Notes: generated by a model from the letters alone, not told the origin. A DNA stretch of 64,000 nucleotides from Nemertoderma westbladi (GCA_032718475.1 JAUCBJ010000641.1:57723-121722); one strand, 5' to 3'. Positions 1 through 25,235 are shown, counted from the stretch's first letter. Program-made: numbers and translations.

Positions 1-3000
1 ATATGTTGTATACTCTGGTGTAAGTGACTCACCATTATATCTATATGTTGTATACTCTGGTGTAAGTGACTCACCATTCTATCTATTTGTTGTATACTCT
101 GGTGTAAGTGATTCACCATTCTATCTATATGTTGTATACTCTGGTGTAAGTGACTCACCATTATATCTATTTGTTGTATACTCTGGTGTAAGTGACTCAC
201 CATTCTATCTATATGTAGTATACTCTGGTGTAAGTGACTCACCATTATATCTATTTGTTGTATACTCTGGTGTAAGTGACGCACCATTCTATCTATATGT
301 TGTATACTCTGGTGTAAGTGACTCACCATTCTATCCATATGCTGTATACTCTGGTGTAAGTGACTCACCATTCTATCTATATGTTGTATACTCTGGTGTA
401 AGTGACTCACCATTCTATCTATTTGTTGTATACTCTGGTGTAAGTGACTCACCATTCCATCTATATGTTGTATACTCTGGTGTAAGTGACTCACCATTCT
501 ATCTATATGTAATATACTCTGGTGTAAGTGACTCACCATTCTATCTATGTTGTATACTCTGGTGTAAGTGACTCACCATTCTATCTATATGTTGTATACT
601 CTGGTGTAAGTGACTCACCATTCTATCTAAATCTAAATGTTGTATACTCTGGTGTAAGTGACTCACCATTCTATCTATGTTGTATACTCTGGTGTAAGTG
701 ACTCACCATTCTATCTATATGTTGTATACTCTGGTGTAAGTGAATCACCATTCTATCTATATGTTGTATACTCTGGTGTAAGTGACTCACCATTCTATCT
801 ATTTGTTGTATACTCTGGTGTAAGTGACTCACCATTCTATCTAAATCTAAATGTTGTATACTCTGGTGTAAGTGACTCACCATTCTATCTATGTTGTATA
901 CTCTGGTGTAAGTGACTCACCATTCTATCTATATGTTGTATACTCTGGTGTAAGTGACTCACCATTATTTCTAAATGTTGTATACTCTGGTGTAAGTGAC
1001 TCACCATTCTATCTATATGTTGTATACTCTGGTGTAAGTGACTCACCATTCTATCTATATGTTGTATACTCTGGTGTAAGTGACTCACCATTCTATCTAT
1101 ATGTTGTATACTCTGGTGTAAGTGACTCACCATTCTATCTATATGTTGTATACTCTGGTGTAAGTGACTCACCATTCTATCTATATGTTGTATACTCTGG
1201 TGTAAGTGACTCACCATTCTATCTATATGTTGTATACTCTGGTGTAAGTGACTCACCATTCTATCTATATGTTGTATACTCTGGTGTAAATGACTCACCA
1301 TTCTATCTATATGTTGTATACTCTGGTGTAAGTGACTCACCATTCCATCTAAATGTTGTATACTCTGGTGTAAGTGACTCACCATTCTATCTATATGTAA
1401 TATACTCTGGTGTAAGTGACTCACCATTCTATCTATGTTGTATACTCTGGTGTAAGTGACTCACCATTCTATCTATATGTTGTATACTCTGGTGTAAGTG
1501 ACTCACCATTCTATCTATTTGTTGTATACTCTGGTGTAAGTGACTCACCATTCCATCTATATGTTGTATACTCTGGTGTAAGTGACTCACCATTCTATCT
1601 ATATGTAATATACTCTGGTGTAAGTGACTCACCATTCTATCTATGTTGTATACTCTGGTGTAAGTGACTCACCATTCTATCTAAATCTAAATGTTGTATA
1701 CTCTGGTGTAAGTGACTCACCATTCTATCTATGTTGTATACTCTGGTGTAAGTGACTCACCATTCTATCTATATGTTGTATACTCTGGTGTAAGTGAATC
1801 ACCATTCTATCTATATGTTGTATACTCTGGTGTAAGTGACTCACCATTCTATCTATTTGTTGTATACTCTGGTGTAAGTGACTCACCATTCTATCTAAAT
1901 CTAAATGTTGTATACTCTGGTGTAAGTGACTCACCATTCTATCTATGTTGTATACTCTGGTGTAAGTGACTCACCATTCTATCTATATGTTGTATACTCT
2001 GGTGTAAGTGACTCACCATTATATCTAAATGTTGTATACTCTGGTGTAAGTGACTCACCATTCTATCTATATGTTGTATACTCTGGTGTAAGTGACTCAC
2101 CATTCTATCTATATGTTGTATACTCTGGTGTAAGTGACTCACCATTCTATCTATATGTTGTATACTCTGGTGTAAGTGACTCACCATTCTATCTATATGT
2201 TGTATACTCTGGTGTAAGTGACTCACCATTCTATCTATATGTTGTATACTCTGGTGTAAGTGACTCACCATTCTATCTATATGTTGTATACTCTGGTGTA
2301 AGTGACTCACCATTCTATCTATATGTTGTATACTCTGGTGTAAATGACTCACCATTCTATCTATATGTTGTATACTCTGGTGTAAGTGACTCACCATTCC
2401 ATCTAAATGTTGTATACTCTGGTGTAAGTGACTCACCATTCTATCTATATGTAATATACTCTGGTGTAAGTGACTCACCATTCTATCTATGTTGTATACT
2501 CTGGTGTAAGTGACTCACCATTCTATCTATATGTTGTATACTCTGGTGTAAGTGACTCACCATTCTATCTATTTGTTGTATACTCTGGTGTAAGTGACTC
2601 ACCATTCCATCTATATGTTGTATACTCTGGTGTAAGTGACTCACCATTCTATCTATATGTAATATACTCTGGTGTAAGTGACTCACCATTCTATCTATGT
2701 TGTATACTCTGGTGTAAGTGACTCACCATTCTATCTATATGTTGTATACTCTGGTGTAAGTGACTCACCATTCTATCTATATGTTGTATACTCTGGTGTA
2801 AGTGATTCACCATTCTATCTATATGTTGTATACTCTCGTGTAAGTGACTCACCATTCCATCTATATGTTGTATACTCTGGTGTAAGTGACTCACCATTCT
2901 ATCTATATGTAATATACTCTGGTGTAAGTGACTCACCATTCTATCTATGTAATATACTCTGGTGTAAGTGACTCACCATTCTATCTATATGTTGTATACT

Positions 3001-6000
3001 CTGGTGTAAGTGACTCACCATTCTATCTATATGTTGTATACTCTGGTGTAAGTGAATCACCATTCTATCTATATGTTGTATACTCTGGTGTAAGTGACTC
3101 ACCATTCTATCTATATGTTGTATACTCTGGTGTAAGTGACTCACCAGTCTATCTATATGTTGTATACTCTGGTGTAAGTGACTCACCATTCCATCTATAT
3201 GTTTTATACTCTGGTGTAAGTGACTCACCATTCTATCTATGTGTTGTATACTCTGGTGTAAGTGACTCACCATTCTATCTATATGTTGTATACTCTGGTG
3301 TAAGTGACTCACCATTCTATCTATATGTTGTATACTCTGGTGTAAGTGACTCACCATTCCATCTATATGTTTTATACTCTGGTGTAAGTGACTCACCATT
3401 CTATCTATATGTTGTATACTCTGGTGTAAGTGACTCACCATTCTATCTATATGTTGTATACTCTGGTGTAAGTGACTCACCATTCTATCTATATGTTGTA
3501 TACTCTGGTGTAAGTGACTCACCATTCTACCTATGTTGTATACTCTGGTGTAAGTGACTCACCATTCTATCTATATGTTGTATACTCTGGTGTAAGTGAC
3601 TCACCTTTCTATCTATATGTTGTATACTGATACTCTGGTGGAAGTGACTCGCCATTCCATCTATATGTTGTATACTCTGGTGTAAGTGACTCACCATTCC
3701 ATCTATATGTTGTATACTCTGGTGTAAGTGACTCACCATTCCATCTATATGTTGTATACTCTGGTGTAAGTGACTCACCATTCTATCTATATGTTGTATA
3801 CTCTGGTGTAAGTGACTCACCATTCCATCTATATGTTGTATACTCTGGTGTAAGTGACTCACCATTCTATCTATATGTAATATACTCTGGTGTAAGTGAC
3901 TCACCATTCTATCTATGTTGTATACTCTGGTGTAAGTGACTCACCATTCTATCTATATGTTGTATACTCTGGTGTAAGTGACTCACCATTCTTTCTAAAT
4001 GTTGTATACTCTGGTGTAAGTGACTCACCATTCTATCTATGTTGTATACTCTGGTGTAAGTGACTCACCATTCTATCTATATGTTGTATACTCTGGTGTA
4101 AGTGAATCACCATTCTATCTATATGTTGTATACTCTGGTGTAAGTTTCTCACCATTCTATCTATGTTGTATACTCTGGTGTAAGTGACTCACCATTCTAT
4201 CTATATGTAGTATACTCTGGTGTAAGTGACTCACCATTCTATCTATATGTTGTATACTCTGGTGTAAGTGACTCACCATTCTATCTATATGTTGTATACT
4301 CTGGTGTAAGTGACTCACCATTCTATCTATGTTGTATACTCTGGTGTAAGTGACTCACCATTATATCTATATGTTGTATACTCTGGTGTAAGTGACTCAC
4401 CATTATATCTATATGTTGTATACTCTGGTGTAAGTGACTCACCATTCTATCTATATGTTGTATTCTCTGGTGTAAGTGACTCACCATTCTATCTATATGT
4501 TGTATTCTCTGGTGTAAGTGACTCACCATTCTATCTATTTGTTGTATACTCTGGTGTAAGTGACTCACCATTCTATCTAAATCTAATGTTGTATACTCTG
4601 GTGTAAGTGACTCACCATTCTATCTATGTTGTATACTCTGGTGTAAGTGACTCACCATTCTATCTATATGTTGTATACTCTGGTGTAAGTGACTCACCAT
4701 TATATCTAAATGTTGTATACTCTGGTGTAAGTGACTCACCATTCTATCTATATGTTGTATACTCTGGTGTAAGTGACTCACCATTCTATCTATATGTTGT
4801 ATACTCTGGTGTAAGTGACTCACCATTCTATCTATATGTTGTATACTCTGGTGTAAGTGACTCACCATTCTATCTATATGTTGTATACTCTGGTGTAAGT
4901 GACTCACCATTCTATCTATATGTTGTATACTCTGGTGTAAGTGACTCACCATTCTATCTATATGTTGTATACTCTGGTGTAAGTGACTCACCATTCTATC
5001 TATATGTTGTATACTCTGGTGTAAGTGACTCACCATTCTATCTATATGTTGTATACTCTGGTGTAAGTGACTCACCATTCTATCTAAATGTTGTATACTC
5101 TGGTGTAAGTGACTCACCATTCTATCTATATGTTGTATACTCTGGTGTAAGTGACTCACCATTATATCTATATGTTGTATACTCTGGTGTAAGTGACTCA
5201 CCATTCTATCTATATGTTGTATACTCTGGTGTAAGTGACTCACCATTCTATCTATATGTTGTATACTCTGGTGTAAGTGACTCACCATTCTATCTATTTG
5301 TTGTATACTCTGGTGTAAGTGACTCACCATTCTATCTATTTGTTGTATACTCTGGTGTAAGTGACTCACCATTCTATCTATATGTTGTATACTCTGGTGT
5401 AAGTGACTCACCATTCTATCTATATGTTGTATACTCTGGTGTAAGTGACTCACCATTCTATCTATATGTTGTATACTCTGGTGTAAGTGACTCACCATTC
5501 TATCTATATGTTGTATACTCTGGTGTAAGTGACTCACCATTCTATCTATATGTTGTATACTCTGGTGTAAGTGACTCACCATTCTATCTATATGTTGTAT
5601 ACTCTGGTGTAAGTGACTCACCATTCTATCTATATGTTGTATACTCTGGTGTAAGTGACTCACCATTCTATCTATATGTTGTATACTCTGGTGTAAGTGA
5701 CTCACCATTCTATCTATATGTTGTATACTCTGGTGTAAGTGACTCACCATTCTATCTATATGTTGTATACTCTGGTGTAAGTGACTCACCATTCTATCTA
5801 TATGTTGTATACTCTGGTGTAAGTGACTCACCATTCTATCTATATGTTGTATACTCTGGTGTAAGTGACTCACCATTCTATCTATATGTTGTATACTCTG
5901 GTGTAAGTGACTCACCATTCTATCTATATGTTGTATACTCTGGTGTAAGTGACTCACCATTCTATCTATATGTTGTATACTCTGGTGTAAGTGACTCACC

Positions 6001-9000
6001 ATTCTATCTATATGTTGTATACTCTGGTGTAAGTGACTCACCATTCTATCTATATGTTGTATACTCTGGTGTAAGTGACTCACCATTCTATCTATATGTT
6101 GTATACTCTGGTGTAAGTGACTCACCATTCTATCTATATGTTGTATACTCTGGTGTAAGTGACTCACCATTCTATCTATATGTTGTATACTCTGGTGTAA
6201 GTGACTCACCATTCTATCTATATGTTGTATACTCTGGTGTAAGTGACTCACCATTCTATCTATATGTTGTATACTCTGGTGTAAGTGACTCACCATTCTA
6301 TCTATATGTTGTATACTCTGGTGTAAGTGACTCACCATTCTATCTATATGTTGTATACTCTGGTGTAAGTGACTCACCATTCTATCTATATGTTGTATAC
6401 TCTGGTGTAAGTGACTCACCATTCTATCTATATGTTGTATACTCTGGTGTAAGTGACTCACCATTCTATCTATATGTTGTATACTCTGGTGTAAGTGACT
6501 CACCATTCTATCTATATGTTGTATACTCTGGTGTAAGTGACTCACCATTCTATCTATATGTTGTATACTCTGGTGTAAGTGACTCACCATTCTATCTATA
6601 TGTTGTATACTCTGGTGTAAGTGACTCACCATTCTATCTATATGTTGTATACTCTGGTGTAAGTGACTCACCATTCTATCTATATGTTGTATACTCTGGT
6701 GTAAGTGACTCACCATTCTATCTATATGTTGTATACTCTGGTGTAAGTGACTCACCATTCTATCTATATGTTGTATACTCTGGTGTAAGTGACTCACCAT
6801 TCTATCTATATGTTGTATACTCTGGTGTAAGTGACTCACCATTCTATCTATATGTTGTATACTCTGGTGTAAGTGACTCACCATTCTATCTATATGTTGT
6901 ATACTCTGGTGTAAGTGACTCACCATTCTATCTATATGTTGTATACTCTGGTGTAAGTGACTCACCATTCTATCTATATGTTGTATACTCTGGTGTAAGT
7001 GACTCACCATTCTATCTATATGTTGTATACTCTGGTGTAAGTGACTCACCATTCTATCTATATGTTGTATACTCTGGTGTAAGTGACTCACCATTCTATC
7101 TATATGTTGTATACTCTGGTGTAAGTGACTCACCATTCTATCTATATGTTGTATACTCTGGTGTAAGTGACTCACCATTCTATCTATATGTTGTATACTC
7201 TGGTGTAAGTGACTCACCATTCTATCTATATGTTGTATACTCTGGTGTAAGTGACTCACCATTCTATCTATATGTTGTATACTCTGGTGTAAGTGACTCA
7301 CCATTCTATCTATATGTTGTATACTCTGGTGTAAGTGACTCACCATTCTATCTATATGTTGTATACTCTGGTGTAAGTGACTCACCATTCTATCTATATG
7401 TTGTATACTCTGGTGTAAGTGACTCACCATTCTATCTATGTTGTATACTCTGGTGTAAGTGACTCACCATTCTATCTATATGTTGTATACTCTGGTGTAA
7501 GTGACTCACCATTCTATCTATATGTTGTATACTCTGGTGTAAGTGACTCACCATTCTATCTATATGTTGTATACTCTGGTGTAAGTGACTCACCATTCTA
7601 TCTATATGTTGTATACTCTGGTGTAAGTGACTCACCATTCTATCTATATGTTGTATACTCTGGTGTAAGTGACTCACCATTCTATCTATATGTTGTATAC
7701 TCTGGTGTAAGTGACTCACCATTCTATCTATATGTTGTATACTCTGGTGTAAGTGACTCACCATTCTATCTATATGTTGTATACTCTGGTGTAAGTGACT
7801 CACCATTCTATCTATATGTTGTATACTCTGGTGTAAGTGACTCACCATTCTATCTATATGTTGTATACTCTGGTGTAAGTGACTCACCATTCTATCTATA
7901 TGTTGTATACTCTGGTGTAAGTGACTCACCATTCTATCTATTTGTTGTATACTCTGGTGTAAGTGACTCACCATTCTATCTAATCTAAATGTTGTATACT
8001 CTGGTGTAAGTGACTCACCATTCTATCTATGTTGTATACTCTGGTGTAAGTGACTCACCATTCTATCTATATGTTGTATACTCTGGTGTAAGTGACTCAC
8101 CATTCTATCTAAATGTTGTATACTCTGGTGTAAGTGACTCACCATTCTATCTATATGTTGTATACTCTGGTGTAAGTGACTCACCATTCTATCTATATGT
8201 TGTATACTCTGGTGTAAGTGACTCACCATTCTATCTATATGTTGTATACTCTGGTGTAAGTGACTCACCATTCTATCTATATGTTGTATACTCTGGTGTA
8301 AGTGACTCACCATTCTATCTATATGTTGTATACTCTGGTGTAAGTGACTCACCATTCTATCTATATGTTGTATACTCTGGTGTAAGTGACTCACCATTCT
8401 ATCTATATGTTGTATACTCTGGTGTAAGTGACTCACCATTCTATCTATATGTTGTATACTCTGGTGTAAGTGACTCACCATTCTATCTATATGTTGTATA
8501 CTCTGGTGTAAGTGACTCACCATTCTATCTATATGTTGTATACTCTGGTGTAAGTGACTCACCATTCTATCTATATGTTGTATACTCTGGTGTAAGTGAC
8601 TCACCATTCTATCTATATGTTGTATACTCTGGTGTAAGTGACTCACCATTCTATCTATATGTTGTATACTCTGGTGTAAGTGACTCACCATTCTATCTAT
8701 TTGTTGTATACTCTGGTGTAAGTGACTCACCATTCTATCTATTTGTTGTATACTCTGGTGTAAGTGACTCACCATTCTATCTATATGTTGTATACTCTGG
8801 TGTAAGTGACTCACCATTCTATCTATATGTTGTATACTCTGGTGTAAGTGACTCACCATTCTATCTATATGTTGTATACTCTGGTGTAAGTGACTCACCA
8901 TTCTATCTATATGTTGTATACTCTGGTGTAAGTGACTCACCATTCTATCTATATGTTGTATACTCTGGTGTAAGTGACTCACCATTCTATCTATATGTTG

Positions 9001-10650
9001 TATACTCTGGTGTAAGTGACTCACCATTCTATCTATATGTTGTATACTCTGGTGTAAGTGACTCACCATTCTATCTATATGTTGTATACTCTGGTGTAAG
9101 TGACTCACCATTCTATCTATATGTTGTATACTCTGGTGTAAGTGACTCACCATTCTATCTATATGTTGTATACTCTGGTGTAAGTGACTCACCATTCTAT
9201 CTATATGTTGTATACTCTGGTGTAAGTGACTCACCATTCTATCTATATGTTGTATACTCTGGTGTAAGTGACTCACCATTCTATCTATATGTTGTATACT
9301 CTGGTGTAAGTGACTCACCATTCTATCTATATGTTGTATACTCTGGTGTAAGTGACTCACCATTCTATCTATATGTTGTATACTCTGGTGTAAGTGACTC
9401 ACCATTCTATCTATATGTTGTATACTCTGGTGTAAGTGACTCACCATTCTATCTATATGTTGTATACTCTGGTGTAAGTGACTCACCATTCTATCTATAT
9501 GTTGTATACTCTGGTGTAAGTGACTCACCATTCTATCTATATGTTGTATACTCTGGTGTAAGTGACTCACCATTCTATCTATATGTTGTATACTCTGGTG
9601 TAAGTGACTCACCATTCTATCTATATGTTGTATACTCTGGTGTAAGTGACTCACCATTCTATCTATATGTTGTATACTCTGGTGTAAGTGACTCACCATT
9701 CTATCTATATGTTGTATACTCTGGTGTAAGTGACTCACCATTCTATCTATATGTTGTATACTCTGGTGTAAGTGACTCACCATTCTATCTATATGTTGTA
9801 TACTCTGGTGTAAGTGACTCACCATTCTATCTATATGTTGTATACTCTGGTGTAAGTGACTCACCATTCTATCTATATGTTGTATACTCTGGTGTAAGTG
9901 ACTCACCATTCTATCTATATGTTGTATACTCTGGTGTAAGTGACTCACCATTCTATCTATTTGTTGTATACTCTGGTGTAAGTGACTCACCATTCTATCT
10001 ATATGTTGTATACTCTGGTGTAAGTGACTCACCATTCTATATATATGTTGTATACTCTGGTGTAAGTGAGTCACCATTCTATCTATATGTTGTATACTCT
10101 GGTGTAAGTGACTCACCATTCTATCTATATGTTGTATACTCTGGTGTAAGTGACTCACCATTCTATCTATATGTTGTATACTCTGGTGTAAGTGACTCAC
10201 CATTCTATCTATATGTTGTATACTCTGGTGTAAGTGAGTCACCATTCTATCTATATGTTGTATACTCTGGTGTAAGTGACTCACCATTCTATCTATATGT
10301 TGTATACTCTGGTGTAAGTGACTCACCATTCTATCTATATGTTGTATACTCTGGTGTAAGTGACTCACCATTCTATCTAAATGTTGTATACTCTGGTGTA
10401 AGTGACTCACCATTCTATCTAAATGTTGTATACTCTGGTGTAAGTGACTCACCATTCTATCTATATGTTGTATACTCTGGTGTAAGTGACTCACCATTAT
10501 ATCTGAATGTTGTATACTCTGGTGTAAGTGACTCACCATTCTATCTATATGTTGTATACTCTGGTGTAAGTGACTCACCATTCTATCTATATGTTGTATA
10601 CTCTGGTGTAAGTGACTCACCATTCTATCTAAATGTTGAATGCTCTGGTG
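1..10650 (-). repeat. 42-bp tandem array (~250 units, runs off the window) derived from MEMO1 exon end plus splice donor
   Basis: Minus-strand unit CACCAGAGTATACAACATATAGATAGAATG|GTGAGTCACTTA; merges into the true exon end CACCAGAGCATTCAACATTTAGATAGAATG at 10650-10621; 40- and 48-bp variant units occur. Confidence 0.98.
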
Positions 10651-10843
10651 AATATGACCACGAGTAGCATCGTGATATGTATAACGGAATCGATGTCCCC
10701 AGTGGCAGAAATCCGAAGATATTACAAATAAAGTAGACGGGTCGGCCAGGTAAGGGGCCAATATAGCACCATAGCAACGCTCCTCTGCAAGCTTTATAGA
10801 CCCAACTAAAATGGGTACTATGGTAACATGGTCAATATAGTCC
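10621..10843 (-). CDS. MEMO1: MEMO1 coding exon 4 (later exons lie beyond the array, outside the window)
   Basis: DYIDHVTIVPILVG...LFVISSDFCHWGHRFRYTY...SIQHLDRM matches MEMO family SSDFCHWG motif; acceptor TTTTTACAG, donor GTGAGT. Confidence 0.93.
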
Positions 10844-11070
10844 CTGTAAAAATAAGATTGAGTCCAATTCATGAAAGGGAGCCGAACTTGTGAGATGTTA
10901 CGTTCCTCGTTGCTAGATAAATATATAAATCACATTTAGCGAGGAACTGATTCCTGTGAATAATATTCAGATTAAACTTATTTAAGCACGATCCAATAAT
11001 ACTAAATGTTCTAATAAAACTACTAATAATAATACATTTGTCGCTATAAATATAAAGGTAGTTAACTAAC

Positions 11071-11179
11071 TCCATGACTTTTGCTATAAAGGGCAACTGC
11101 ATCTCGATACTGTGTTCATCTTCGTCTGTTTGTTTACTGATAGTTTCAAACTTCTCGGTTGCTTCTAAAGCTTGGTAAA
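11071..11179 (-). CDS. MEMO1: MEMO1 coding exon 3
   Basis: YQALEATEKFETISKQTDEDEHSIEMQLPFIAKVME (EHSIEM motif); TTTTAG acceptor, GTTAGT donor; phases fit neighbours. Confidence 0.93.
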
Positions 11180-11438
11180 CTAAAATAAATGGTTGATAAT
11201 GGAATGTTGAACAACAAACTGATAACAAACAACATGAAAGCCTTGAACAGAAAGGGGGGGGGGGGGGGGGGGGGGGGTGGTGACATTTGCTTAGCACCAA
11301 AAATATATGTGTTATTTGTTTAATTGTATTTAGTTTATTTGTTTTGGTTAGTATATAACGTGCCACTGTAACATGCTCGTTTCCCGAAACTTATAAATTA
11401 ATATATATAAATATTATGAAATTAATATTAATAAGCAA

Positions 11439-11477
<39 letters not shown>

Positions 11478-11661
11478 AGCATAAAGGGGAGTGAAAATAT
11501 CAGAGACTGGAACTCTGGAAGAATATACAATATATAATAATAAAATGAAACTAATTGAGCAAAAAGGTTACCGCACATACAAATAAATACTACCGGTACA
11601 TAAAATAATTTACAACATTACGATTTAGAGTAGAGGGACAGTCCATAACAATAATACCAAC

Positions 11662-11937
11662 CCTCGGCGTCGATTCGTAGATTACCAAAAGGAGTTCTGT
11701 AAACGAGACAGCTAGTGAGGGCACATTTCGAGAGATATCGATGGTGTGAAGGTCCAAGTATGAAGACTCTACGGACTATGGAGGGCTCCACCTGTCTGTA
11801 AGCGTAGGAAGCACAGTCGCCGCAGTAGGTGTAGCCGGCATGGGGCGCGATAATCGCACGCGCTGGACGCAAACATTCCGCGTCGCTGTCTGAAGCTTTA
11901 TTCAACCAGCCGTCCAACTGCCGTGAGAGCGATGAAG
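11662..11937 (-). CDS. MEMO1: MEMO1 coding exon 2
   Basis: [11 protein letters not shown]...[15 protein letters not shown]...[10 protein letters not shown]...[11 protein letters not shown]; CCCATTAG acceptor, GTTGGT donor. Confidence 0.94.
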
Positions 11938-12967
11938 CTAATGGGAATGACAAGGAAATAAAGTGAAGTTAGATAACGTTATTTATATGATTCCAGATTT
12001 AGAGAGGCCAAAGGGGCGCAGTACAGGTAGCGCAGGGAAAAAATACGATACGAAAAGACGATTCGAGACGAACCAATTTCAGAATTTTTCATGATACGGT
12101 ACGATACCGTACGAATGCAATTTTTAGAAAATACAATACGATCCGAAAATTCCAAGACACACGAATAATGTTTCGTATTTTTTAAAAAATTTCAAAATTT
12201 TTAAGGTCTATTCCACATACCGGTAGCATAATAGTTTTCCATCAGTTTAACATCATTCACTCGCTTGGCGTTTTTTTCTATTACATAAATACCTACTGAA
12301 ATAGCCAACCATAGGCAATTATAGCTGCCTAGCATCTGGCTCTCTGGTAGGCCTACTGTATTCCCTATTGAAAAGTTTTACATGTGTTCAGCTGTTTGGC
12401 GCAGCATTTTAACTTGCGCCGCGTGCCGGGAGCTGGCGCAAAAATGTGTTACGCCGGGTGAAGTTCTGAAAGGGCTGGCGCAGAAATGTCAATGAATACC
12501 GGTATACTGCGCCGGGCGCTGGGGCAGCCAGCGTAGCATCGTCAATGATAGAGATGCTGCGCTCAGCGCTGCAGCGCAATTTTTGAATTGGTGGCGTAGC
12601 TTTGCACCAAGCAGGCGCTAGAATTTTTGCACTTGGCAGCTTCGAGCTTGGGGCCGCGTTCGCCGCAGAAAATAAATAGATAGGATAGAAAATAGATCCG
12701 TATTGCAGTAGGAAACATAGGCAGATAGGCCTGCCCTTAAATACCGGTAAGTACCTGACCAGACTGCCAGAACACTACAGCACTATGCCTACAGCACTCG
12801 GCATAGGCTTATACCAGCACCAGGCCTGCAGGCCAGCTACCGCCTACCGGTACCAGCTGACCTGTCTGCCTGTATCGACTGGTAACTGGCAGACTGGGTA
12901 CGCCATACAGCCATACGCATACAGGCATAGGCCTACGCCTAATCCCAGAATACAGGAATCGACTTAC

Positions 12968-13043
12968 CATCACTATTATACCACGTTCCCGCATGAGAAC
13001 ATTCTCTGATATCAGACGAATTATGTTTGATTTTCTTGTACAT
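12968..13043 (-). CDS. MEMO1: MEMO1 coding exon 1
   Basis: ATG at 13043; MYKKIKHNSSDIRECSHAGTWYNSD then G|GTAAGT; HAGxWY N-terminal motif; four exons sum to 684 nt, in frame. Confidence 0.9.
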
Positions 13044-13323
13044 TTTTATAGTTGACAGGTTGAAGAGGTTGGCCTCTCAGTCTCTACCGTCCTCCGTCAA
13101 GGTCAAACAGTAGGTACCAGTACCGGTACGGCAGTACGGTGTAGCAATAGCAATGAGTTGTCGCTGTGCAAGGTAGGCTACGTTCCGTACCGTTCAGCCG
13201 TCTGGCCGTTACAGATTGAACAGATATCTGGATATGGGAGTTCGAGTTGTCGTTGCGCACCTGACAGCCTGACAGCAAAACTGGCCAATATTAACAATTC
13301 CAAGACGGTCTGGGCCTGACTGG

Positions 13324-16300
13324 TTGCCTAACTCAACTTTTTTCGAACCTTATAATTTAAAAGCCGTTGGTAATAACGACTTCGACACAGAATTCAACCC
13401 TGATGTGCATATAAATGCACATATAAATGCACCTAAAAATTGTACATACTACTTTTCAGATGATTTCAATGAAAAATTCAATAACGAAAATTTATATGAT
13501 TTGTCTTTACTTCACCTAAATTCAAGGAGCCTACCAGGCAACTTTGAGAACATATCTGCATATATAAAACAACAAATATCAATAAAATTTGATGCTATAG
13601 GAATTAGTGAGACATGGCTAAATGCAGATAGGCATATAATCGACAATTATAATTTGGAAGGATATAATTTTTTTCAAAAAAATAGGGAAACAAAGTTGGG
13701 TGGGGGAGTTGGTCTTTACATTAAAGACACAATATCAGCTATACCACGTGATGACCTTTCCAAGCTTCCGAGTATTGGAAATGGATTGGATTCACTATTT
13801 ATAGAAATTCCACAAGAGAAAAGTAAAAATATCTTAATTGGTGTCATTTATCGACCCCCTGATCATTGCATTCAGGACAGCATCACATCACTAAACATCA
13901 TATTACAAAAAATTACAGACGAGGGCAAAATTTGTTACCTTATGGGGGATTATAATATGGACCTCCTTAAGGTAGAACAGCATGCACCAACAAGTGATTT
14001 TTTTAATTTAATGACTTCTCATTGTTTTCACCCAACCATTTCTAAACCAACCCGTATCACTGACACAACTGCTACCTTAATTGATAACATATTTGTAAAC
14101 ACGCTTCCTACTTCTCTCGACTCTGGTATTTTTATATGTAATTTAACAGATCACCTACCCATATTTCTCCTCAGTAAATTTAACAGCAAACTTAGTAAGA
14201 GAGACATTAAAAAATTTGTATTACAGAGGCAATATTCTGAAAAAAACAGTACAATTTTTAATGAGAAACTCACTAGCTTTGACTGGAATACCATGTTGCT
14301 GCTAGCTAGTGACCATGACAATGCAAATGATATGTACAATAAATTTGTAGCAATTTACTCAAAAATATATAATGAGTGCTTTCCAATGAAACGAATAAAA
14401 TTAGCAAATCCCAAAACACCATGGATACCGCATAATATATTAAAATGTATCAAGAAAAAAGACAGATTTTACCACGATTACCTCATCCATAAAAATGAAA
14501 AAGCCAAAGAAAAATTTGTGAAATATCGCGATGCACTGAAGACAATCATTCGAAGGTCTAAAATTAATTATTTTAATAACGCCATGGACAGTAAAACTCG
14601 AACAGTGAAACAAATATGGCAATCTATAAATCAACTAATTAACCGCAAAGTCAACAAAACATCTGGGCCGACTTTAATTCATCATGATTCCCGTACTGCC
14701 ACGGAACCCAAAACGATTGCTACCTCCATGAATCAGTATTATTCTCGTGTAGCTTTTAATCTTGACAAAGAGATACCAATAGTCGAAGGTAATCCCATTG
14801 ATTATTTATCACCAATTAAATTTCCCAATTATCATCTAGATGAATTTAATAGTGTTTCATGTTCTGATATTAAAACAATAGTTTTGGATTTTGGTTCAAA
14901 GGCCAGCCCCGGTCATGATGGTATCCGTGGTAAAATTGTCCAGAACTCATTACAGCCGATCCTATTACCTCTAACATATATTATTAATTGCTCTCTCCGC
15001 ACCGGTATTGTACCAGACAGTCTGAAAATTGCACGAGTTATTCCAATTTTTAAATGTGATGACCCCACGATTCCTAAAAACTATAGACCAATATCGGTCT
15101 TACCATTCTTCTCTAAGATTTTCGAAAAAGTTGTTGCTAAACAACTTCTAAAATATGTCACCCACCAGGTAATTATATCGCCATCACAATTTGGGTTTCA
15201 GGCAAACATATCAACGCAATTAGCATTATTAACACTTGTAGACAAAATTACATCATCCCTTGAAAAGAAACAATCAACATTAGCACTCTCAATAGACCTA
15301 TCAAAGGCATTTGACACGGTTAACCATGCAATTCTATTAAGCAAAATGGAACACTATGGAATAAAAGGTGTTGCATTGGAATGGTTCCAAAGTTACTTGT
15401 TCCAACGTAAACAATATGTAGCCATTGACAATATTTGTTCCGAACAAAAAATTATCCAGTGCGGGGTGCCCCAGGGGTCCATTCTAGGTCCTCTGCTTTT
15501 CCTCCTATACTGCAACGACATAACCAATGTCTCCAAAATATTTAGTTTTGTTTTATTTGCGGACGACACCAGCATAGTTAACTCTAGTAATAATATTGAT
15601 AACCTGATTGCCAGTACGAACTCTGAATTACAAAATCTCCAAAAATGGTTTTGTGTCAATCGCCTATCCTTGAATATCAGCAAAACAAACTATATTATCT
15701 TCAATACAAGCAACCGGATCATCAGTCCATCAACTCCAATTCACATTAATAACATTGACATTACTCGAGTAAAGGTGGCCAAATTCCTTGGTGTACACAT
15801 AGATGAGCGACTAAACTGGAAGTACCATCTACACCAAATAAGTATGAAGATTAGTAAAAATATAGGTGTTATAAACAAGGTAAAATCATTTATGACTACA
15901 GAATCTTTAGCAGCTCTATACTACGCAATGGTCCATCCATACTTAAGTTACTGTACGGTAGTTTGGGGTAAATCAATAACGGACAATACTGAACAACTAG
16001 TACCCAGTTACACCAGATCAAAATTTAGACATAGAAGGAGGAGGAGGCGAAAAGTTTATGATGTTGTTTCAATAACAAACATTTTTAAATTGCACAAACA
16101 CCAACAGAAAATTATTTCAATAATTCAACATCGCGATCTTAATTTTTCACCACCTACACTTAATCACATTTTTACTCAACAAGTAGCTATCCTCTCCTTT
16201 AAGTCTATCCGTAATATAACCCCCCATGGGATATTGCCCGACCTATTAACACCCGTTTCAAATGTACACACCCATGAGACAAGATCCTCACAATCTCAAA

Positions 16301-16470
16301 ATGCGTTCCGTCTACGAAATAGGCTAAAAATCCGAACTCAATCTATTTACGCTCTAGCACCAGTAATTTGGAATGGTCTACCTCTTGCAGTGCGACAGTC
16401 TAGCGGATTATTACAATTTAAGTACAAATTAAATAATTTCTTAAGGGGTACTACTATAACTACAACGTAA
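13324..16470 (+). CDS. LINE ORF2: AP endonuclease plus reverse transcriptase, uninterrupted 1048 aa
   Basis: APE motifs LNSRSL, ISETWL, GGGVGLY, IYRPP, GDYN, TDHLP; RT motifs YRPISVL, QFGF, DLSKAFD, GVPQGSILGP, FADD, KFLG. Confidence 0.95.
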   Translation: MPNSTFFEPYNLKAVGNNDFDTEFNPDVHINAHINAPKNCTYYFSDDFNEKFNNENLYDLSLLHLNSRSLPGNFENISAYIKQQISIKFDAIGISETWLNADRHIIDNYNLEGYNFFQKNRETKLGGGVGLYIKDTISAIPRDDLSKLPSIGNGLDSLFIEIPQEKSKNILIGVIYRPPDHCIQDSITSLNIILQKITDEGKICYLMGDYNMDLLKVEQHAPTSDFFNLMTSHCFHPTISKPTRITDTTATLIDNIFVNTLPTSLDSGIFICNLTDHLPIFLLSKFNSKLSKRDIKKFVLQRQYSEKNSTIFNEKLTSFDWNTMLLLASDHDNANDMYNKFVAIYSKIYNECFPMKRIKLANPKTPWIPHNILKCIKKKDRFYHDYLIHKNEKAKEKFVKYRDALKTIIRRSKINYFNNAMDSKTRTVKQIWQSINQLINRKVNKTSGPTLIHHDSRTATEPKTIATSMNQYYSRVAFNLDKEIPIVEGNPIDYLSPIKFPNYHLDEFNSVSCSDIKTIVLDFGSKASPGHDGIRGKIVQNSLQPILLPLTYIINCSLRTGIVPDSLKIARVIPIFKCDDPTIPKNYRPISVLPFFSKIFEKVVAKQLLKYVTHQVIISPSQFGFQANISTQLALLTLVDKITSSLEKKQSTLALSIDLSKAFDTVNHAILLSKMEHYGIKGVALEWFQSYLFQRKQYVAIDNICSEQKIIQCGVPQGSILGPLLFLLYCNDITNVSKIFSFVLFADDTSIVNSSNNIDNLIASTNSELQNLQKWFCVNRLSLNISKTNYIIFNTSNRIISPSTPIHINNIDITRVKVAKFLGVHIDERLNWKYHLHQISMKISKNIGVINKVKSFMTTESLAALYYAMVHPYLSYCTVVWGKSITDNTEQLVPSYTRSKFRHRRRRRRKVYDVVSITNIFKLHKHQQKIISIIQHRDLNFSPPTLNHIFTQQVAILSFKSIRNITPHGILPDLLTPVSNVHTHETRSSQSQNAFRLRNRLKIRTQSIYALAPVIWNGLPLAVRQSSGLLQFKYKLNNFLRGTTITTT

Positions 16471-17800: not shown

Positions 17801-19050
17801 ACAAATTATTTCTAGTCTTGAACCCTACTGCCGCAGTGCCGGATTAAGCCTCTGGTGGCCCTAAGGCACATTTTAGTAATTTCCAAAAATGGCCCGAAAA
17901 TTTATATTTGTCCGCAAACCATTTCAAAAGAAAAAGCTGCTAAAAACAACTGAAATTGTTGCGAATGATATATAAAGTATTTTCGTTGGATGACTGCGTG
18001 CCAATAAGTACTTTGCAAGAATAGTTTTCATCAAGAATTGTAACATTACTAAACGGGATATTATGCTATTCTTATAAAACCTTTGCTATAAAAAGTATAA
18101 TAGAGCTTCATAAACTCTTTGTTCGAAAAATATGGCACTTTTTGAGCAGGTCGGTTTTTTTCAAAAATTCTGTAAATTGTGTGGCATTTATATGTAAATT
18201 AGCTCATGTTTAAAGATCTGTAATACCACCTGCATTAAAGTTCTTGGCTCAAGACTTTGGTAAAATGGACCTAGATATGTAGGCTATCTTCTATGAAAAC
18301 TTTAAAACAATTTTATTAGCACAAAATGATTGTTTTTGAAAAATTTATGGGGGTTTTAGTATGTCCGGGCTATATTTTGGGAATCTAATATTTTGTGATA
18401 GACAAAGTGTAGTAGGGTACACAATCGGTTCTAGAATATCCAAATGGCCATGTTTTACAAAACCAACGATAGTAGTCCTAAAGCTGCTGAACATTTTGGT
18501 ATATGTTTGATGGCAATTGAGTAAAAAATAAAATAGTAGTAGGGAATTGAGTGATGAAAAAGTCAAAATTGACAAACTGATAAAAAGGTTTGTTATACAG
18601 AGAGTCATAAATATCAGCAATATATTATGTTGTTGAAAAGAGCAGTTTTGAGGTAAAAAAATAATTCAATCTTGAAAACCGATCTTATGAAAGCCCTTCT
18701 ATCAAACTACAAAAAATTGTGTAAATTTTCGAAAATTTCATTTCTGTGGGGGTTATAGTTGGCCCCTGTAAGCATTTAACAATTTTGATCGGATCGTGGG
18801 AATGTGTTATTTATTTGCTGTAGGGTACTTATACAGGGTACTTATCTACAGGGTAGGGCCTAGTTATCTTTACAGGACTTGCTGAGAAATACAACACACC
18901 AAAAGTGCAAAGACATAATATTTCTGATCTAGATTTGGACTTGCTGAGAAAGTAATGTTCTTCGATAAGAGAATAGTCTCGGAAATAAGCACTTTTTGTC
19001 ACTATTTTAATTTACTAAAATTTAATTATGCTGTCCGAGAGTTTTAGGTT

Positions 19051-20163
19051 TTGCAGGAATTGCTTGATCTCATCTGTAACAACTCAACTGTACCCGAAAT
19101 TTCATCAGAAACCATAAGGACTGCGATTCTCTCGTTGAACAAAAATAAGTCGCCAGACTCTGCATCACTAGTAGTGGAGCACCTACTAGCTCTTAATCCA
19201 ACTCTTGTTGTAGGGGTTCTCCACAATATCTTTAGAACATCGTTGCGCCTAGGTCATTGTCCCCAACTTCTTGGGGAGACGATAATTACATGTATCTATA
19301 AGGGTCACAGGAAAGATAGATTTCATCCATCCTCATATCGTCCGGGGTCTACGGTCAATATTATTGCAAAGATCTTGGAAGCGATTTGCCTCTCAGAATT
19401 TCTTCGGAGTGTCATAAAACCGCATGAGCTGTCGATGGCGTACCAGAAAGGCATTGGGTGTGACACTTCTATCAGTCTAGCATATGAGATTATAAACCAC
19501 TTTAACAGTAGCCGAGCTCCAGTGTACTTGTGCCAGACAGATATTGACTCAGCATTCGACACAGTGTGTAGACTCCTTCTGCAGTATTACCTTAGTGGCC
19601 GTTTCTTTTTCAAATTTGGTGAGGAGGTTGACATCAATAGCTTCACTCCAAGAAATGGAGTTAAGCAAGGATCTATCCTTTCACCGATCCTGTTTAATTT
19701 TCATATTTCTGATGCAATTGAGGCTGTTAAGAATTCTGGACTGGGGTGTAGAATTATTATGAATCGCAGTGTCTCCATCCTCAACTATGCCGACGATATC
19801 ATTTTATTTGCTGAATGCGGTGGGGACATCGATAATATGATGGTACTTCTGGATACCGAGCTAAAGAAAATTGGACTTTCTATCTCCATAAGTAAAACTC
19901 ACTGGACGATGGTAAATGGGTCATCTAAAGTGCAGAGTCTCTCTGACAGAACGCTATCAATCCTTGGTACAAATGTACTGTTCACTAAGTCAATATCTTT
20001 CCTTGGATTTACTTTCTACCAATCTCCATATCAGCTTCTAAATGAATGTCGACGCAGGATATCGTCAATGGGGGCGATCTTCCACACCAGGGGTTGGACA
20101 GTACGGCAATTTCCTGCGGAATGCATTGCCAGGCTATGGAATGCTGTCGCTGTGCCTGGTATC
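19051..20163 (+). pseudogene. Non-LTR RT ORF, part 1, cut by BEL/Pao A
   Basis: SYRP, DIDSAFDTV, GVKQGSILSPILF, YADD, FLG; ends at the GTATC target duplication. Confidence 0.88.
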
Positions 20164-21370
20164 TGTTCGCGCTTTCAGACCTTTGGCAGTTTAACCCGCC
20201 AAATTAAGATGTCTTCTAGATATTAAATCGTTTTTAGTCTATGACAAGTATTTGATTCACTACACTAGTCGAAACCAATCTGTGCGCGACCATTCACCCG
20301 CTGGATATTCCCGGGAGATTGGGTTCGACGGTTTAATTTTATTGCTATGTAAGCCTAATGTATTATTCGACTGACAGTATTATATAATCTCTGACAATAT
20401 TATTCACCTTCGGGAATATTAACAGTTCCTTTAGGACGTGGCGCTTTATCTATATAAACAGAGTTATGACTTAAACTACTCACAACGATATGGCTTAATT
20501 ATAATTCACATATATGGCGCATTCTTTAGGAATTGCTTCTTTAACAAACTCACTCATACGCAATGCTGCACAATACTGCACACTAATCTGCCAATCTTCA
20601 CTGATTTTAGTCACATATAAAAGGAACACAGACTGACTCATGTAGGGTCTATCAAATAACATTAGATTCACTTCAAACCACTTTAACATAAGTCACAATC
20701 GTTATTGGTAACCTTTCTCTCTTACCTTCGGTATATCAAGAATATTGGGTTTCGGGGTTATTTCTCGTTATTCCAAATATAATAATTCATCAACCATATT
20801 ATGAAGAACTGACAGTAAATAGCAGTATAAAACAACAACTGAACACTGATTGTTATGAGTTTGCAATGTTTCAGCAGTCAGGATGTATGATCAGTTAGCA
20901 GTGAGATATTTACAGGTTAAAGGATATATGTCCTTATAATTAAACCTACTAGTGTAAGACTAAAAACTGAAAACACGGAGGTGCCAAAAGCCGGTTCTTA
21001 GGCTCTGGGCAAAAACATAACACTGAACTACTGAGTTTCTGTATTTACCTCCAACACAGAGACAACAAACGCTCTGATTGGTCAACCTGAACAACGAGAG
21101 AACAAAGAAACAAAGAAACGTCGACGTGGCAATATCAGCTGCTAGCCGTCGTCATGGTAGCGACACTGTTTTCAAGAGTATCGAGCTTTTACGTCACGGA
21201 ATTACGGATTATGTCCTCTAAAGTACAAATACAGAAGAAATAGCTTTTATGTCCGCTAAAACACCAGTACAGCAAGGACACGGCCTTTTTATGCCTGGTA
21301 AACCAACTACAGAGTATTTTACGGGAAAAATAAGGAAAAATAACCGGGCAATTCAGCAAAAGCTTTTACA
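20164..21370 (-). repeat. 3' LTR of element A
   Basis: Only about 3 differences seen versus 32152-33358; preceded on minus strand by purine tract GGGAGCGG (21378-21371). Confidence 0.97.
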
Positions 21371-21399
21371 CCGCTCCCAGAAAATGGGATTTTCAGTCT

Positions 21400-22781
21400 A
21401 TAAAATATAAAAATCACAGTTTCTAAAACATAAAGATACTCTAAACAGTTAGTCTTTCTTACGCAGACGGCGTTTACGCAGTTTTTTGAGGCTAGCAAGA
21501 GTCTTTCTCTCTTTGGGGGGAGCCACTTTACTAGGAGGGCCATAACTCCTGGGTGAAGGGTGCAATATGATTGCATCAGAAGGTGTAGGTTTATGGTCGA
21601 GGTATCTGCCGTTTCGATATGCTTCTCCTCGAGCTGATTTTCCTCCGCTCGTAGCTGGATACGTTCATCCAAAAACTCTCGCAGAGAATAGGATCGTCCA
21701 AGTTCGATAACTTCTTAGAGATTCTGGATTTCCCAATCGAATTGAGATAAGGCCAATTCGTTTATCGATTGGACTTACTGTTATAACTTACGTTTATCTG
21801 AACAAACGCAGGTTTCCTTTTTGATCTTTATAGAATAGCGTTTAACTCGTTTCGTACAACGCTCTCCTTCACCTTGATGAGGGGTTGTATCGCGTTAAAC
21901 GGGGACGACCATACGGTTGGATAGTGATATTAGGTGTCTGCGTCATAATCCGGCTAGGCAAGATGGGCGGCTAGCTAGAAATCACTGTCGGAGTGTTACC
22001 GATTAATTGTTAGGGTAGCACTAGATCTTGAACAGTGAATACCGTCCGCGAGGATCCGCGACACCACCAGGATCACAGGTCTGAGGTCCAACTAAGGAAT
22101 GAGGAGGTTTGACCGAGTATTCCGGGACTCTGATCGTAGGTTTACTCTAGGATCGTTAGAGCCGAGTGAGCATAGGTGATACGTCAAACAAGTTTCGCTC
22201 GAAACTCCAGTAAATATAATGAATACAACTGTGTTTAACACAACGTTTCCGTGGATGTTTATGTCTTTCCGTTTATTGGCTGGATCTAGGGCATTTACCG
22301 TAATAATACCAAAGACGCACGTCTGGTAGGGGAAACGCGGGTGATATTTATTTGTTGTTACAATGCTTCTATCAAGAATTCCAAATATACGTTGGAGTTA
22401 CCGCGTTTATTTGTTTCTTTAGTGTCTTTTCTTTCGAGTCGATTTCGAATAGAATTTTCGCATTCGAATTTCAGTTTATGGTTCCGACTCCGCTGGGCAG
22501 GATATATAGTCGACATAGTCCGTATTGTGTAAATCGATAGGATGACCAGTAGTTAAGAAGACCATATACGTACCATTACGCTGCGTATATCGAGCAGCGA
22601 ATTTTCTATAGTCCAACTCGCGCGCGAGCTGCTCTTGGGACATTGGCGGTTCGATATAACGACCATCGTCCTCCGCAGCAGTTGGACTAACGTCGCCGCG
22701 TATTAAGCTATCAACAAACGCTTGTAAAAGTAGAGTATATCGCTCCCCGATACCAAGACCATCTTCTATCAACTCCGTCAT
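21400..22781 (-). pseudogene. Decayed, deleted copy of the extra ORF in element A
   Basis: MTELIEDGLGIGERYTL... homologous to the 44870 ORF; stops; jumps near 21610 to the basic C-terminus. Confidence 0.85.
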
Positions 22782-24430
22782 ATCTGCTATATATGAGTTT
22801 ATCCATATTATAATGAGTTTATATTTAGGCGAGCGGACGTCGCTGCCTACCCCAATCAACCCCCGGACAGTACGAGATCCTCAGCGCCGATGTGTCGTCG
22901 CCGCTGTACTTTCGCCAACGACGTAGCCGCACAACGACAACGACCACCGGCACAAGTCACTCAACTGTCCGTCCCAAAGGCTTAGATGTACTTCAGGTTT
23001 TCCTTGGAGAGTTAGGTTACTTTTACGATTGCGACTAGCTACTGTAAACACACTTTAGCAGTAACATTCACCTATAAACTCACAAATACCACACAACTGG
23101 TCACAACTACGCACATTCGGGCCATTTGTCCGTTAGTCAATGCCTTCCAGAATGTCACTGTATTATTATGTATCCTTGGATACTAGTAGTGCGCTATTTA
23201 TTCCCTATGCTATTCAATGGGACAAGCTTTCTATTGTTCGTTTAACTCAATTCTAATTCTAGCGTGGTTGTTGCTATGGTGACATTATGCAAAGCTAGCG
23301 GTAGAATTAGAGTAATTCCAATGCATACAGATCTGGGATGTTATTTAATAGTAATTCTTTAATAGTCAATGTCCTGTTTATACATGACTTTACGAATTTT
23401 ATCGGCTATTAACTATGTTTGGGAGACTTTCGTACACGCATACGCATAATAATATAAATCTCCGCTCCCTTGATCTATTAATTAATGGAATTTTGGGAAT
23501 GTTATAAATTGCGTAAAATGGCAATTTATTAAATTCATTAAAAGACATGAATTTAAATTTATTCCCTGAAATTTTATTATTTGATAATTAAATGGACATA
23601 TTTTGATTCTAGAACTTGTCTAGGGACACAAGATCCTTAATTCTAAGAAAATTGTCTCTTTAAGAATATCGGTAAATGCTACGATATCTTAATTGACTAG
23701 AATTGTTGAAGGATCTGAATTTTACAGATTTTGACTTATTTGATTTGTAAATATTAACTAATTAATATTTGAGATGGGCACCGATTTATTCCAGAACTTG
23801 TCTGGGGACGTTAACCATTGATTCTAGAATTTGTCTTTCAAGTATATCGGTGGGTGCCACGATATCTTAATCGACTAGAATTACAGATGGTCAAAGGGTT
23901 TAACAGATTTATTTTGCGTTATACGCTACTGTTAAAGGGACATCACGCTACTATATGTATTATTTAATATACGGTATGAGAGCAATATCGCACGAAGCAA
24001 TGTCAGTGTGAAGAGGCAAGTCGTTTCCAAGGTCTACCCAGAGCTTGGTTTAGCCGAGACACGAGGATCTGAACTTTGCATTCCTAATACTCTGCCTACC
24101 AATAATACTTAAATATAGTAGTGGCTTTATTGTACTTTAATAAGTACAGACATTTCATCTCACTGCAGTTACGTATTTATAATATAATACGGACAGTAAG
24201 GAAAGAGAAAAAATAATTATTTCTTCGCCGTCTCACTAAATATAATATAAGTAATTACGTACGTAATAAACACGAATATATTGCACTATTCTACAAAATA
24301 ATCGCCAAAATAATATTCTACTAAATTAAATAAAACGATTATAATAAAATTACATAGTAATACATACATAAATATAAAAATGATAAAAATAATATAAAAT
24401 AATAGAGTCACACGCCCACTCCATATGTTG

Positions 24431-25222: not shown

Positions 25223-25235
25223 CCAACCTACTCTA

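What the first reader, a model, noticed from the sequence alone, without database searches (positions are those of the whole stretch)
1..10650. MEMO1 exon end and 5' splice site amplified about 250 times in frame
Seen: each 42-bp unit has the last 30 exon nt plus ATG|GTGAGT, the same context as the real donor at 10620. The proximal ~60 units (to about 8030) keep the MEMO1 frame open, each adding VSHLHQSIQHIDRM; frameshifting 40-bp units appear only further out. Similarity between exon GTCATATTCACCAG and unit junction GTCACTTACACCAG suggests slippage origin. Inference: splicing must choose among hundreds of equal donors, giving either a ladder of His-rich isoforms, NMD-coupled dampening, or strict first-donor selection.
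Basis: partly seen in the sequence, partly recalled or inferred. Interest (0 to 1): 0.82.

Follow-up and report, generated by a model that had tools for sequence, protein, structure and literature searches.

The report
Giant splice-donor minisatellite in MEMO1
In an animal's MEMO1 gene, the end of exon 4 and its splice signal are copied head to tail about 250 times into the next intron, but spliced sequences from two studies leave the exon at the first signal, so this is likely a tolerated, very large example of a repeat type already known from lancelet and human genes.

Summary
On the minus strand, MEMO1 exon 4 ends at 10621 and is followed by 252 complete units of a 42-bp repeat (12 intron-like bases plus 30 bases 27/30 identical to the exon end), running off the window. 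240 of 253 donor sites read ATG|GTGAGT; the frame stays open for 61 units. The isoform-ladder idea is not supported. Two public runs from two studies behave as spliced RNA; in both, exon 4 joins the next MEMO1 exon at the first donor. The open frame shows no coding constraint: 3 of 23 distinct codon changes are silent (19 of 126 possible), an out-of-frame run of 66 units is equally free of frameshifts, and the antisense frame is open too. DNA contigs from two studies hold the unit at high depth, so it is not an assembly invention. It is a junction-spanning ('mirage') minisatellite like lancelet Adh3/globins and human F7 intron 7, about ten times larger than the largest published case I saw. 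This scan has already noted the same thing, sometimes larger, in many other genes of this genome (unchecked notes); that recurrence, not this locus, is the interesting part.

The parts
12968..13043 (-). MEMO1 coding exon 1 (from ATG; transcript extends further 5')
   Evidence: X5 record 24 covers 12968-13100, joint 11937/12968
11662..11937 (-). MEMO1 exon 2
   Evidence: Pfam Memo E 2.8e-23; joints in X4 and X5
11071..11179 (-). MEMO1 exon 3
   Evidence: Pfam Memo E 2.1e-06; joints in X4 and X5
10621..10843 (-). MEMO1 exon 4; its last 30 bases (10621-10650) are the source of the exon-like part of the unit
   Evidence: Pfam Memo E 3.2e-13; 27/30 identity to unit
10615..10623 (-). Authentic 5' splice site ATG|GTGAGT (cut between 10621 and 10620), the donor used in spliced contigs
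   Evidence: loose ends at 10620 in X4 and X5 that read as the next MEMO1 exon
10579..10620 (-). Repeat unit 1 (equal to the consensus): 12 intron-like bases plus 30 exon-like bases ending in ATG
8059..10620 (-). Units 1-61, all 42 bp, open in the MEMO1 frame (14 residues each); no sign of coding constraint
4656..8058 (-). Units 62-142: three frameshifting units (62, 63, 76), then 66 units without a frameshift, out of the MEMO1 frame
1..4655 (-). Units 143-252 and a partial unit: variable part with block duplications (offset 25 units); array runs off the window, the rest of the intron and exon 5 onward lie outside

Best explanation
This is an intronic minisatellite whose unit spans the MEMO1 exon 4 / intron 4 border; it likely arose by slippage and grew by ordinary repeat turnover, and it is likely tolerated because the spliced sequences seen leave the exon at the first donor, which would remove the other copies with the intron. 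Steps: (1) inferred: a 42-base duplication was seeded by mispairing between GTCA in the exon and GTCA four bases into the intron, which lie exactly one unit apart; (2) inferred from pattern: slippage and unequal exchange expanded and homogenised it, leaving block duplications; (3) shown for two runs: the first donor is joined to the next exon, giving a normal MEMO1 frame; (4) inferred from the F7 model and exon definition: the exon 4 acceptor pairs with the nearest donor, and the copies lack a good acceptor of their own, so they stay silent; (5) the open frame is a by-product of a period divisible by three and four intron codons without a stop.
For: X5 record 24 (1445 bases, depth 58) runs through exons 1-4 with joints at all three introns and leaves at 10620; X4 shows the same joints at depth about 6,800-8,000 and a junction contig at 10620 of depth 6,533, of the same order as neighbouring exon contigs (6,000-7,319). 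The loose end, read by hand in the exon frame, gives GMDLIEQLDA; 58 of 63 full-length homologs have G at the next position and similar residues after it. X4 and X5 belong to two studies; the DNA-like runs X1 and X2 show none of these joints. The X4 junction contig has one other letter over 41 bases (the shared variant at 10639), so it comes from the exon, not from a unit. 61 of 63 full-length homologs keep exactly 49 residues between the motifs flanking this junction (2 lacked a motif), and the junction lies inside a predicted helix 205-221 of a homolog model. No coding constraint: 3 silent, 20 non-silent distinct codon changes against 19 of 126 possible silent (binomial P 1.0). Block duplications: units 189-204 match 214-229, 206-213 match 231-238. 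AG sites in the unit have 3-4 T in the 14 bases upstream, the three real acceptors 7-8. Precedent: PMC1557585, PMC3087553, PMC3902484.
Against: Only assembled contigs could be laid, which drop rare variants and cannot measure isoform shares; both spliced runs are listed as 'DNA?' and are taken as RNA from their joints. Only X5 shares a sample label with DNA runs that hold the array (X1, X3); whether the X4 animal carries it is not known. No frameshifting unit falls among the first 61, which is unlikely if units are treated as independent (P 0.003), though not among variant units only (0 of 9 against 20 of 81, Fisher P 0.20). In two human cases (6-16 and CBS) the next two copies are used as well (PMC1557585, introduction). 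An unchecked note on a GALNS array in this genome reports splicing from a variant copy. The distal end of the array, which would show the ancestral intron start, is outside the window, so step 1 is not closed. The first-donor mechanism was shown in mammalian cells, not in this animal.
Confidence: 0.83

Rival explanations
1. The proximal copies act as alternative donors and give a ladder of in-frame MEMO1 isoforms with 14-residue, histidine-rich inserts, at low level or in particular tissues.
For: 61 proximal units keep the frame and 240 of 253 donors are identical to the real one; naive P 0.003 for no frameshift among the first 61; human 6-16 and CBS use two further copies (PMC1557585, introduction); 14 residues is close to four helical turns, so one insert might be accommodated (inference).
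Against: Spliced contigs of two studies use the first donor; no coding constraint among unit variants; an equally long frameshift-free run (units 77-142) lies out of frame; the antisense frame is open for 885 codons and the unrelated 30-bp array has a 1,526-codon open frame; 61 of 61 homologs with both motifs have no insertion here.
Confidence: 0.07
2. The array lowers or delays MEMO1 output: distal donors give premature stops that are destroyed by NMD, or the long intron slows transcription, so that array length tunes expression.
For: Donors beyond unit 61 would carry a stop; such transcripts would be scarce in steady-state RNA, so the contigs do not test them; tandem repeat length affects splicing at many human loci (PMC10078293, abstract start and passages).
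Against: First-donor contigs are present at high depth in X4; nothing in the unit variants points to selection; in F7 silent copies included ones without a premature stop (PMC1557585, discussion).
Confidence: 0.05
3. The array is inflated or misplaced by assembly, or the expressed MEMO1 is a second, uninterrupted copy and this locus is silent.
For: No listed contig bridges exon and array by 31 letters on both sides (X1 reaches 19 bases into unit 1, X2 12); depth ratios differ widely between runs; no genome was available to look for a paralog; all five runs laid show G at 10639 where the window has A.
Against: Unit contigs stand at depth 1,373 against 45-77 for listed unique contigs in X1 and 6,346-9,083 against 23 in X2, two studies (not copy numbers); the exon contigs of X1 and X2 run on into unit sequence; 34 distinct unit types in ordered blocks are not what a collapsed or looped assembly gives; the X5 transcript differs from the window by only 4 letters over the four exons.
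Confidence: 0.04

Closest known systems
Lancelet 'mirage' minisatellites (Adh3, globins BflGb6 and BflGb9, troponin C, PGBD5). Seen: matching passages of PMC3087553 and PMC3902484; the Adh3 and troponin C papers only as cited there.
   Same: Head-to-tail copies of an exon-intron border with intact splice signals; normal splicing reported; concerted turnover; unit size within the 10-72 bp given for Adh3.
   Different: At least 253 copies over 10.6 kb against 3-6 for BflGb6; units here keep the reading frame; length instability not tested directly here.
Human F7 intron 7 37-bp VNTR, with 6-16 (25 extra sites), CBS intron 13 (15-20), LMNB2 (10-15) and PDGF intron 4 (16-18) as cited there. Seen: abstract, introduction and discussion of PMC1557585.
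   Same: First unit spans the exon-intron border, so the exact donor is repeated downstream; the most upstream donor is the one used (F7, LMNB2, PDGF).
   Different: Ten to fifty times more copies; 30 of 42 bases are exon-derived (4 of 37 in F7); use of the second and third copy as in 6-16 and CBS was not seen but could not be measured.
Human splicing-associated tandem repeats (spl-TRs). Seen: start of abstract and 12 passages of PMC10078293.
   Same: A tandem repeat next to a splice site that could change splicing with its length.
   Different: That catalogue covers motifs up to 20 bp and rests on association with measured splicing; no such effect is shown here.

Membership tests
Junction-spanning ('mirage', F7-type) minisatellite | Head-to-tail tandem array with a unit of minisatellite size | tested here: met
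   42 bp x 253.5, 96% matches
Junction-spanning ('mirage', F7-type) minisatellite | Unit spans a real exon-intron border of the host gene | tested here: met
   30 exon-like plus 12 intron-like bases; border confirmed by spliced contigs leaving at 10620
Junction-spanning ('mirage', F7-type) minisatellite | Splice signal repeated intact in the copies | tested here: met
   240 of 253 ATG|GTGAGT, 252 of 253 with GT
Junction-spanning ('mirage', F7-type) minisatellite | Host mRNA is spliced normally at the authentic site | tested here: met
   X4 and X5, two studies, first donor joined to the next exon; minor isoforms not measurable
Junction-spanning ('mirage', F7-type) minisatellite | Copy number varies between alleles or cells | tested here: inconclusive
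   Depth ratios differ between runs (about 18-31 in X1, about 270-390 in X2) but contig depth is no copy number, and X1 and X3 share a sample label yet look different
Coding VNTR / in-frame isoform ladder | Units are included in mature mRNA | tested here: inconclusive
   The junction contigs seen come from the first donor; contigs cannot exclude minor forms
Coding VNTR / in-frame isoform ladder | Units show coding constraint (silent changes favoured, frameshifts avoided) | tested here: not met
   3 of 23 silent against 19 of 126 possible; Fisher P 0.20 for frameshifts among variant units; 66-unit out-of-frame run equally clean
MEMO1 family (host gene) | Pfam Memo domain and homology along the protein | tested here: met
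   PF01875 in exons 2, 3, 4; exon 4 is 61-72% identical to the 120 listed homologs

The most novel reading that the evidence does not exclude
This animal has a mutational process tied to 5' splice sites (for example pausing or RNA-DNA hybrids where the spliceosome first binds) that seeds and inflates satellites out of its own exon ends in dozens of genes, so that much of its intron length is made of spare splice donors; the MEMO1 array, with about 240 identical in-frame donors, would then be a natural test bed for how one donor is chosen among hundreds, and a reservoir for in-frame exon extension.
Probability: 0.25. Interest if true: 0.7.

Novelty: new member of a known kind. Interest (0 to 1): 0.25.

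Why it matters
As a single locus it matters little: it extends a known, tolerated repeat type to a copy number about ten times the largest published case I saw (25 extra sites) and shows first-donor choice in an invertebrate-like genome with about 240 identical competitors. It also warns that gene predictors may call a false 900-residue repeat protein here. It would matter more if the recurrence noted across this genome is confirmed as a true bias towards splice donors, since that would link splicing to repeat birth and intron growth and make donor choice measurable over many natural arrays.

Tried and rejected
No whole genome is held, so no paralog search, no distal array end, no genome-wide count. 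No RNA holder listed; X4 and X5 were taken as spliced RNA only from their joints. Parts without cover, given here only and not as evidence: X4 shows depth 0 over 10555-10619 (unit sequence) while bubbles of depth 4-10 beside the junction were kept (8 of 9 X4 records shown); of the 2 X5 records laid neither lies on the unit. The second X4 junction contig (depth 3.95) was checked as a possible unit-derived junction: its length and ends place the extra letter at 10631, not at the unit-diagnostic 10632, and it matches the exon upstream, so it was rejected as an error bubble. No loose end marking the far end of the array appeared in X2 or X3 (124 records not shown). Copy number from depth: rejected as unreliable. 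Hairpin masking of donors: a 5-pair stem covers each donor, the first one alike, and is not better than shuffles (z -0.5 and -0.7; exon end plus three units z -2.0). Mini-exons from the unit's own AG: weak pyrimidine tracts, not tested in RNA. Second array 57967-62487 as another junction repeat: abuts a possible small minus-strand exon, but the GT context is weak and four candidate peptides gave no Pfam match: not shown. Organism: not determined; two acoelomorph genome papers (PMC9911081, PMC10565955; passages on tandem repeats, satellite, intron) did not mention such arrays in the passages seen, and their supplements were not read. Paper searches with no hit: (MEMO1, tandem repeat, intron) listed 5 papers whose titles and abstract starts do not concern this; the library lacks most subscription papers, so absence from print is not established. 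Frame slips were corrected.

Full report
What is there. The first 10,650 bases are one tandem array of period 42 (253.5 copies, 96% matches). On the minus strand it follows four coding exons at 13043-12968, 11937-11662, 11179-11071 and 10843-10621, which give 228 codons without a stop. Exons 2, 3 and 4 each match Pfam Memo, and exon 4 is 61-72% identical to the 120 listed of 637 hits, which are MEMO1 proteins of arthropods, annelids and fishes with no close relative. The host is therefore an animal, likely an invertebrate; I did not determine which. The remaining exons lie beyond position 1.

The array. There are 253 donor-like sites and 252 complete units: 227 of 42 bp, 18 of 40, 5 of 48 and 2 of 47, in 34 types, 162 equal to the consensus. 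240 of 253 sites read ATG|GTGAGT, as the real donor does, and 252 keep GT. Each unit is 12 intron-like bases and 30 bases that match the exon end at 27 positions. The first 61 units keep the MEMO1 frame; unit 62 (8058) is 40 bp and the frame stops at 8023-8025.

Is the open frame meaningful? The tests say no. Distinct codon changes among 42-bp variants are 3 silent and 20 non-silent, against 19 silent of 126 possible single changes (P 1.0). No frameshift among the first 61 units has a naive probability of 0.003, which counts against my reading, but units are not independent: the proximal part is poor in all variants, and among variant units the split is 0 of 9 against 20 of 81 (Fisher P 0.20). 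Units 77-142, 66 in a row, are as free of frameshifts although they lie behind a stop and out of frame. One antisense frame is open for 885 codons, and the unrelated 30-bp array at 57967-62487 has an open frame of 1,526 codons. A period divisible by three is enough to explain the frame.

Which donor is used? Five public runs hold the exon region, from three studies, all guessed as DNA. Laid on 10579-13100, X4 and X5 behave as spliced RNA: both have joints that skip exactly the three introns (227, 482 and 1,030 bases, CT..AC on the plus strand), which X1 and X2 lack. X5 has one 1,445-base contig (depth 58) through all four exons that leaves the window at 10620; X4 has two contigs that leave at the same base. 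The loose letters, read by hand in the exon frame, give GMDLIEQLDA, as expected for the next MEMO1 exon: 58 of 63 full-length homologs have G at that position, followed by similar residues. In the close view the main X4 junction contig has depth 6,533, of the same order as neighbouring exon contigs (6,000-7,319), and differs from the exon only at 10639, a silent variant shown by all five runs laid; it is therefore exon-derived. X5 shares a sample label with DNA runs X1 and X3, which hold the array. Limits: these are assembled contigs, which drop rare forms and do not measure shares; the tissue is unknown; the array status of the X4 animal is unknown.

Is the array real DNA? Unit contigs stand at depth 1,373 in X1 (listed unique contigs mostly 45-77) and 6,346-9,083 in X2 (exon contig 23), from two studies; X3 shows many unit contigs too. 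The exon contigs of X1 and X2 run 19 and 12 bases into unit 1, short of the 31 letters the tool asks for a bridge. Depth is no copy number, and the best holder may be related to the window's source, but X2 differs from the window at many sites and is from another study. The unit is thus highly repeated in this species, next to exon 4; its exact length and variation are open.

Would an insert be tolerated? 61 of 63 full-length homologs (285-320 residues, chosen from the 120 listed) keep exactly 49 residues between the two motifs that flank the junction; 2 lacked a motif. In a model of homolog P0004 (mean pLDDT 89) the junction falls inside helix 205-221, and solved human MEMO1 structures align without a gap there. 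Inserts of many units would likely disturb the fold; a single 14-residue insert might not.

How it likely arose. GTCA occurs 38 bases before the exon end and again four bases into the intron-like part, exactly 42 bases apart. Mispairing there during replication or repair would copy this very unit. An in-register run of four occurs in 4 of 181 background windows, but the test was chosen after seeing the match, and the next four bases differ at three positions. The far end of the array, which would show the old intron start, is not in the window. Later growth left marks of ordinary turnover: a near-uniform stretch at units 17-125 and block duplications with an offset of 25 units further out. Tolerance follows if the exon 4 acceptor pairs with the nearest donor. 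That is what mutational work on human F7 found (PMC1557585; abstract, introduction, discussion read), and the AG sites in the unit have poorer pyrimidine tracts than the three real acceptors. These steps are inferred, not shown in this animal.

What is known. Minisatellites whose first unit spans an exon-intron border are described for human F7 (5-9 copies), 6-16 (25 extra sites), CBS (15-20), LMNB2 and PDGF; only the first donor is used in F7, LMNB2 and PDGF, and two further ones in 6-16 and CBS. In lancelets they are called mirages (Adh3, troponin C, globins, PGBD5) and are reported not to disturb splicing (passages of PMC3087553 and PMC3902484). I took the lancelet lead and the word from earlier notes of this scan and checked the passages. 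This array meets four of the five features I listed; length variation is inconclusive. I found no paper on a MEMO1 array or on genome-wide giant donor arrays, in a library that lacks most subscription papers.

Context from the scan. Notes on other pieces of this genome (AI notes, unreviewed, not tested by me) describe the same kind of array in PRPF8, GALNS, TFCP2, HBS1L, KIDINS220, MPDZ, CLUAP1 and others, up to about 1,300 copies, mostly with the first donor used and one report of splicing from a variant copy; similar smaller cases were noted in other genomes. If right, the MEMO1 array is one ordinary case of a genome-wide habit. Within this window two arrays fill 24% of the bases, but I could not show that the second is junction-derived.

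Verdict. A real, large, junction-spanning minisatellite; a new member of a known kind; likely tolerated through first-donor splicing (confidence 0.83). Interest 0.25 for the locus. The bolder reading, a splice-donor-biased process of satellite birth across this genome, has probability about 0.25 and would deserve about 0.7.

Noticed in passing
window 57967-62487: A second minisatellite, 30 bp x about 151. On the minus strand it starts right after a possible small exon (about 62558-62472) whose last 15 bases form half of the unit, followed by a weak GT context; no Pfam match for four candidate peptides, so a junction origin is possible but not shown.
   Followed up: partly
window 1-10620: Nearly every unit holds the heptamer TGASTCA (249 matches in the window), which I recall as the AP-1 binding consensus; it arises from the donor plus the next two bases. 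A dense binding array is conceivable, untested.
   Followed up: no
window 10639: All five runs laid show G where the window has A, a silent change in exon 4; the units carry a third letter at the matching position.
   Followed up: partly
window 10630-10680: The end of exon 4 folds as RNA into a hairpin better than shuffles (z -3.3, 3 of 200 shuffles as good); one of three stretches folded, so possibly chance.
   Followed up: no
window 13273-16470 (+) and 19048-20226 (+): LINE-type reading frames (endonuclease and reverse transcriptase, Pfam PF03372, PF00078); the first begins about 230 bases upstream of the MEMO1 start codon, pointing away from it.
   Followed up: partly
window 24431-29953 and 46514-54610 (-): Two related BEL/Pao-type retrotransposon copies (DUF1759, Peptidase_A17, DUF5641).
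   Followed up: partly
window 40610-44903 (-), related pieces near 21319-22880: Two long adjacent reading frames (975 and 480 codons); the 975-codon one has no Pfam match, the other was not scanned; shorter related copies lie near 21-23 kb, suggesting an unclassified repeat element.
   Followed up: no
proteins P0002, P0003, P0009: Three homologs from unnamed assemblies stop matching MEMO1 at the position of this exon end and run on into unrelated sequence, which suggests the same intron position in other animals.
   Followed up: no
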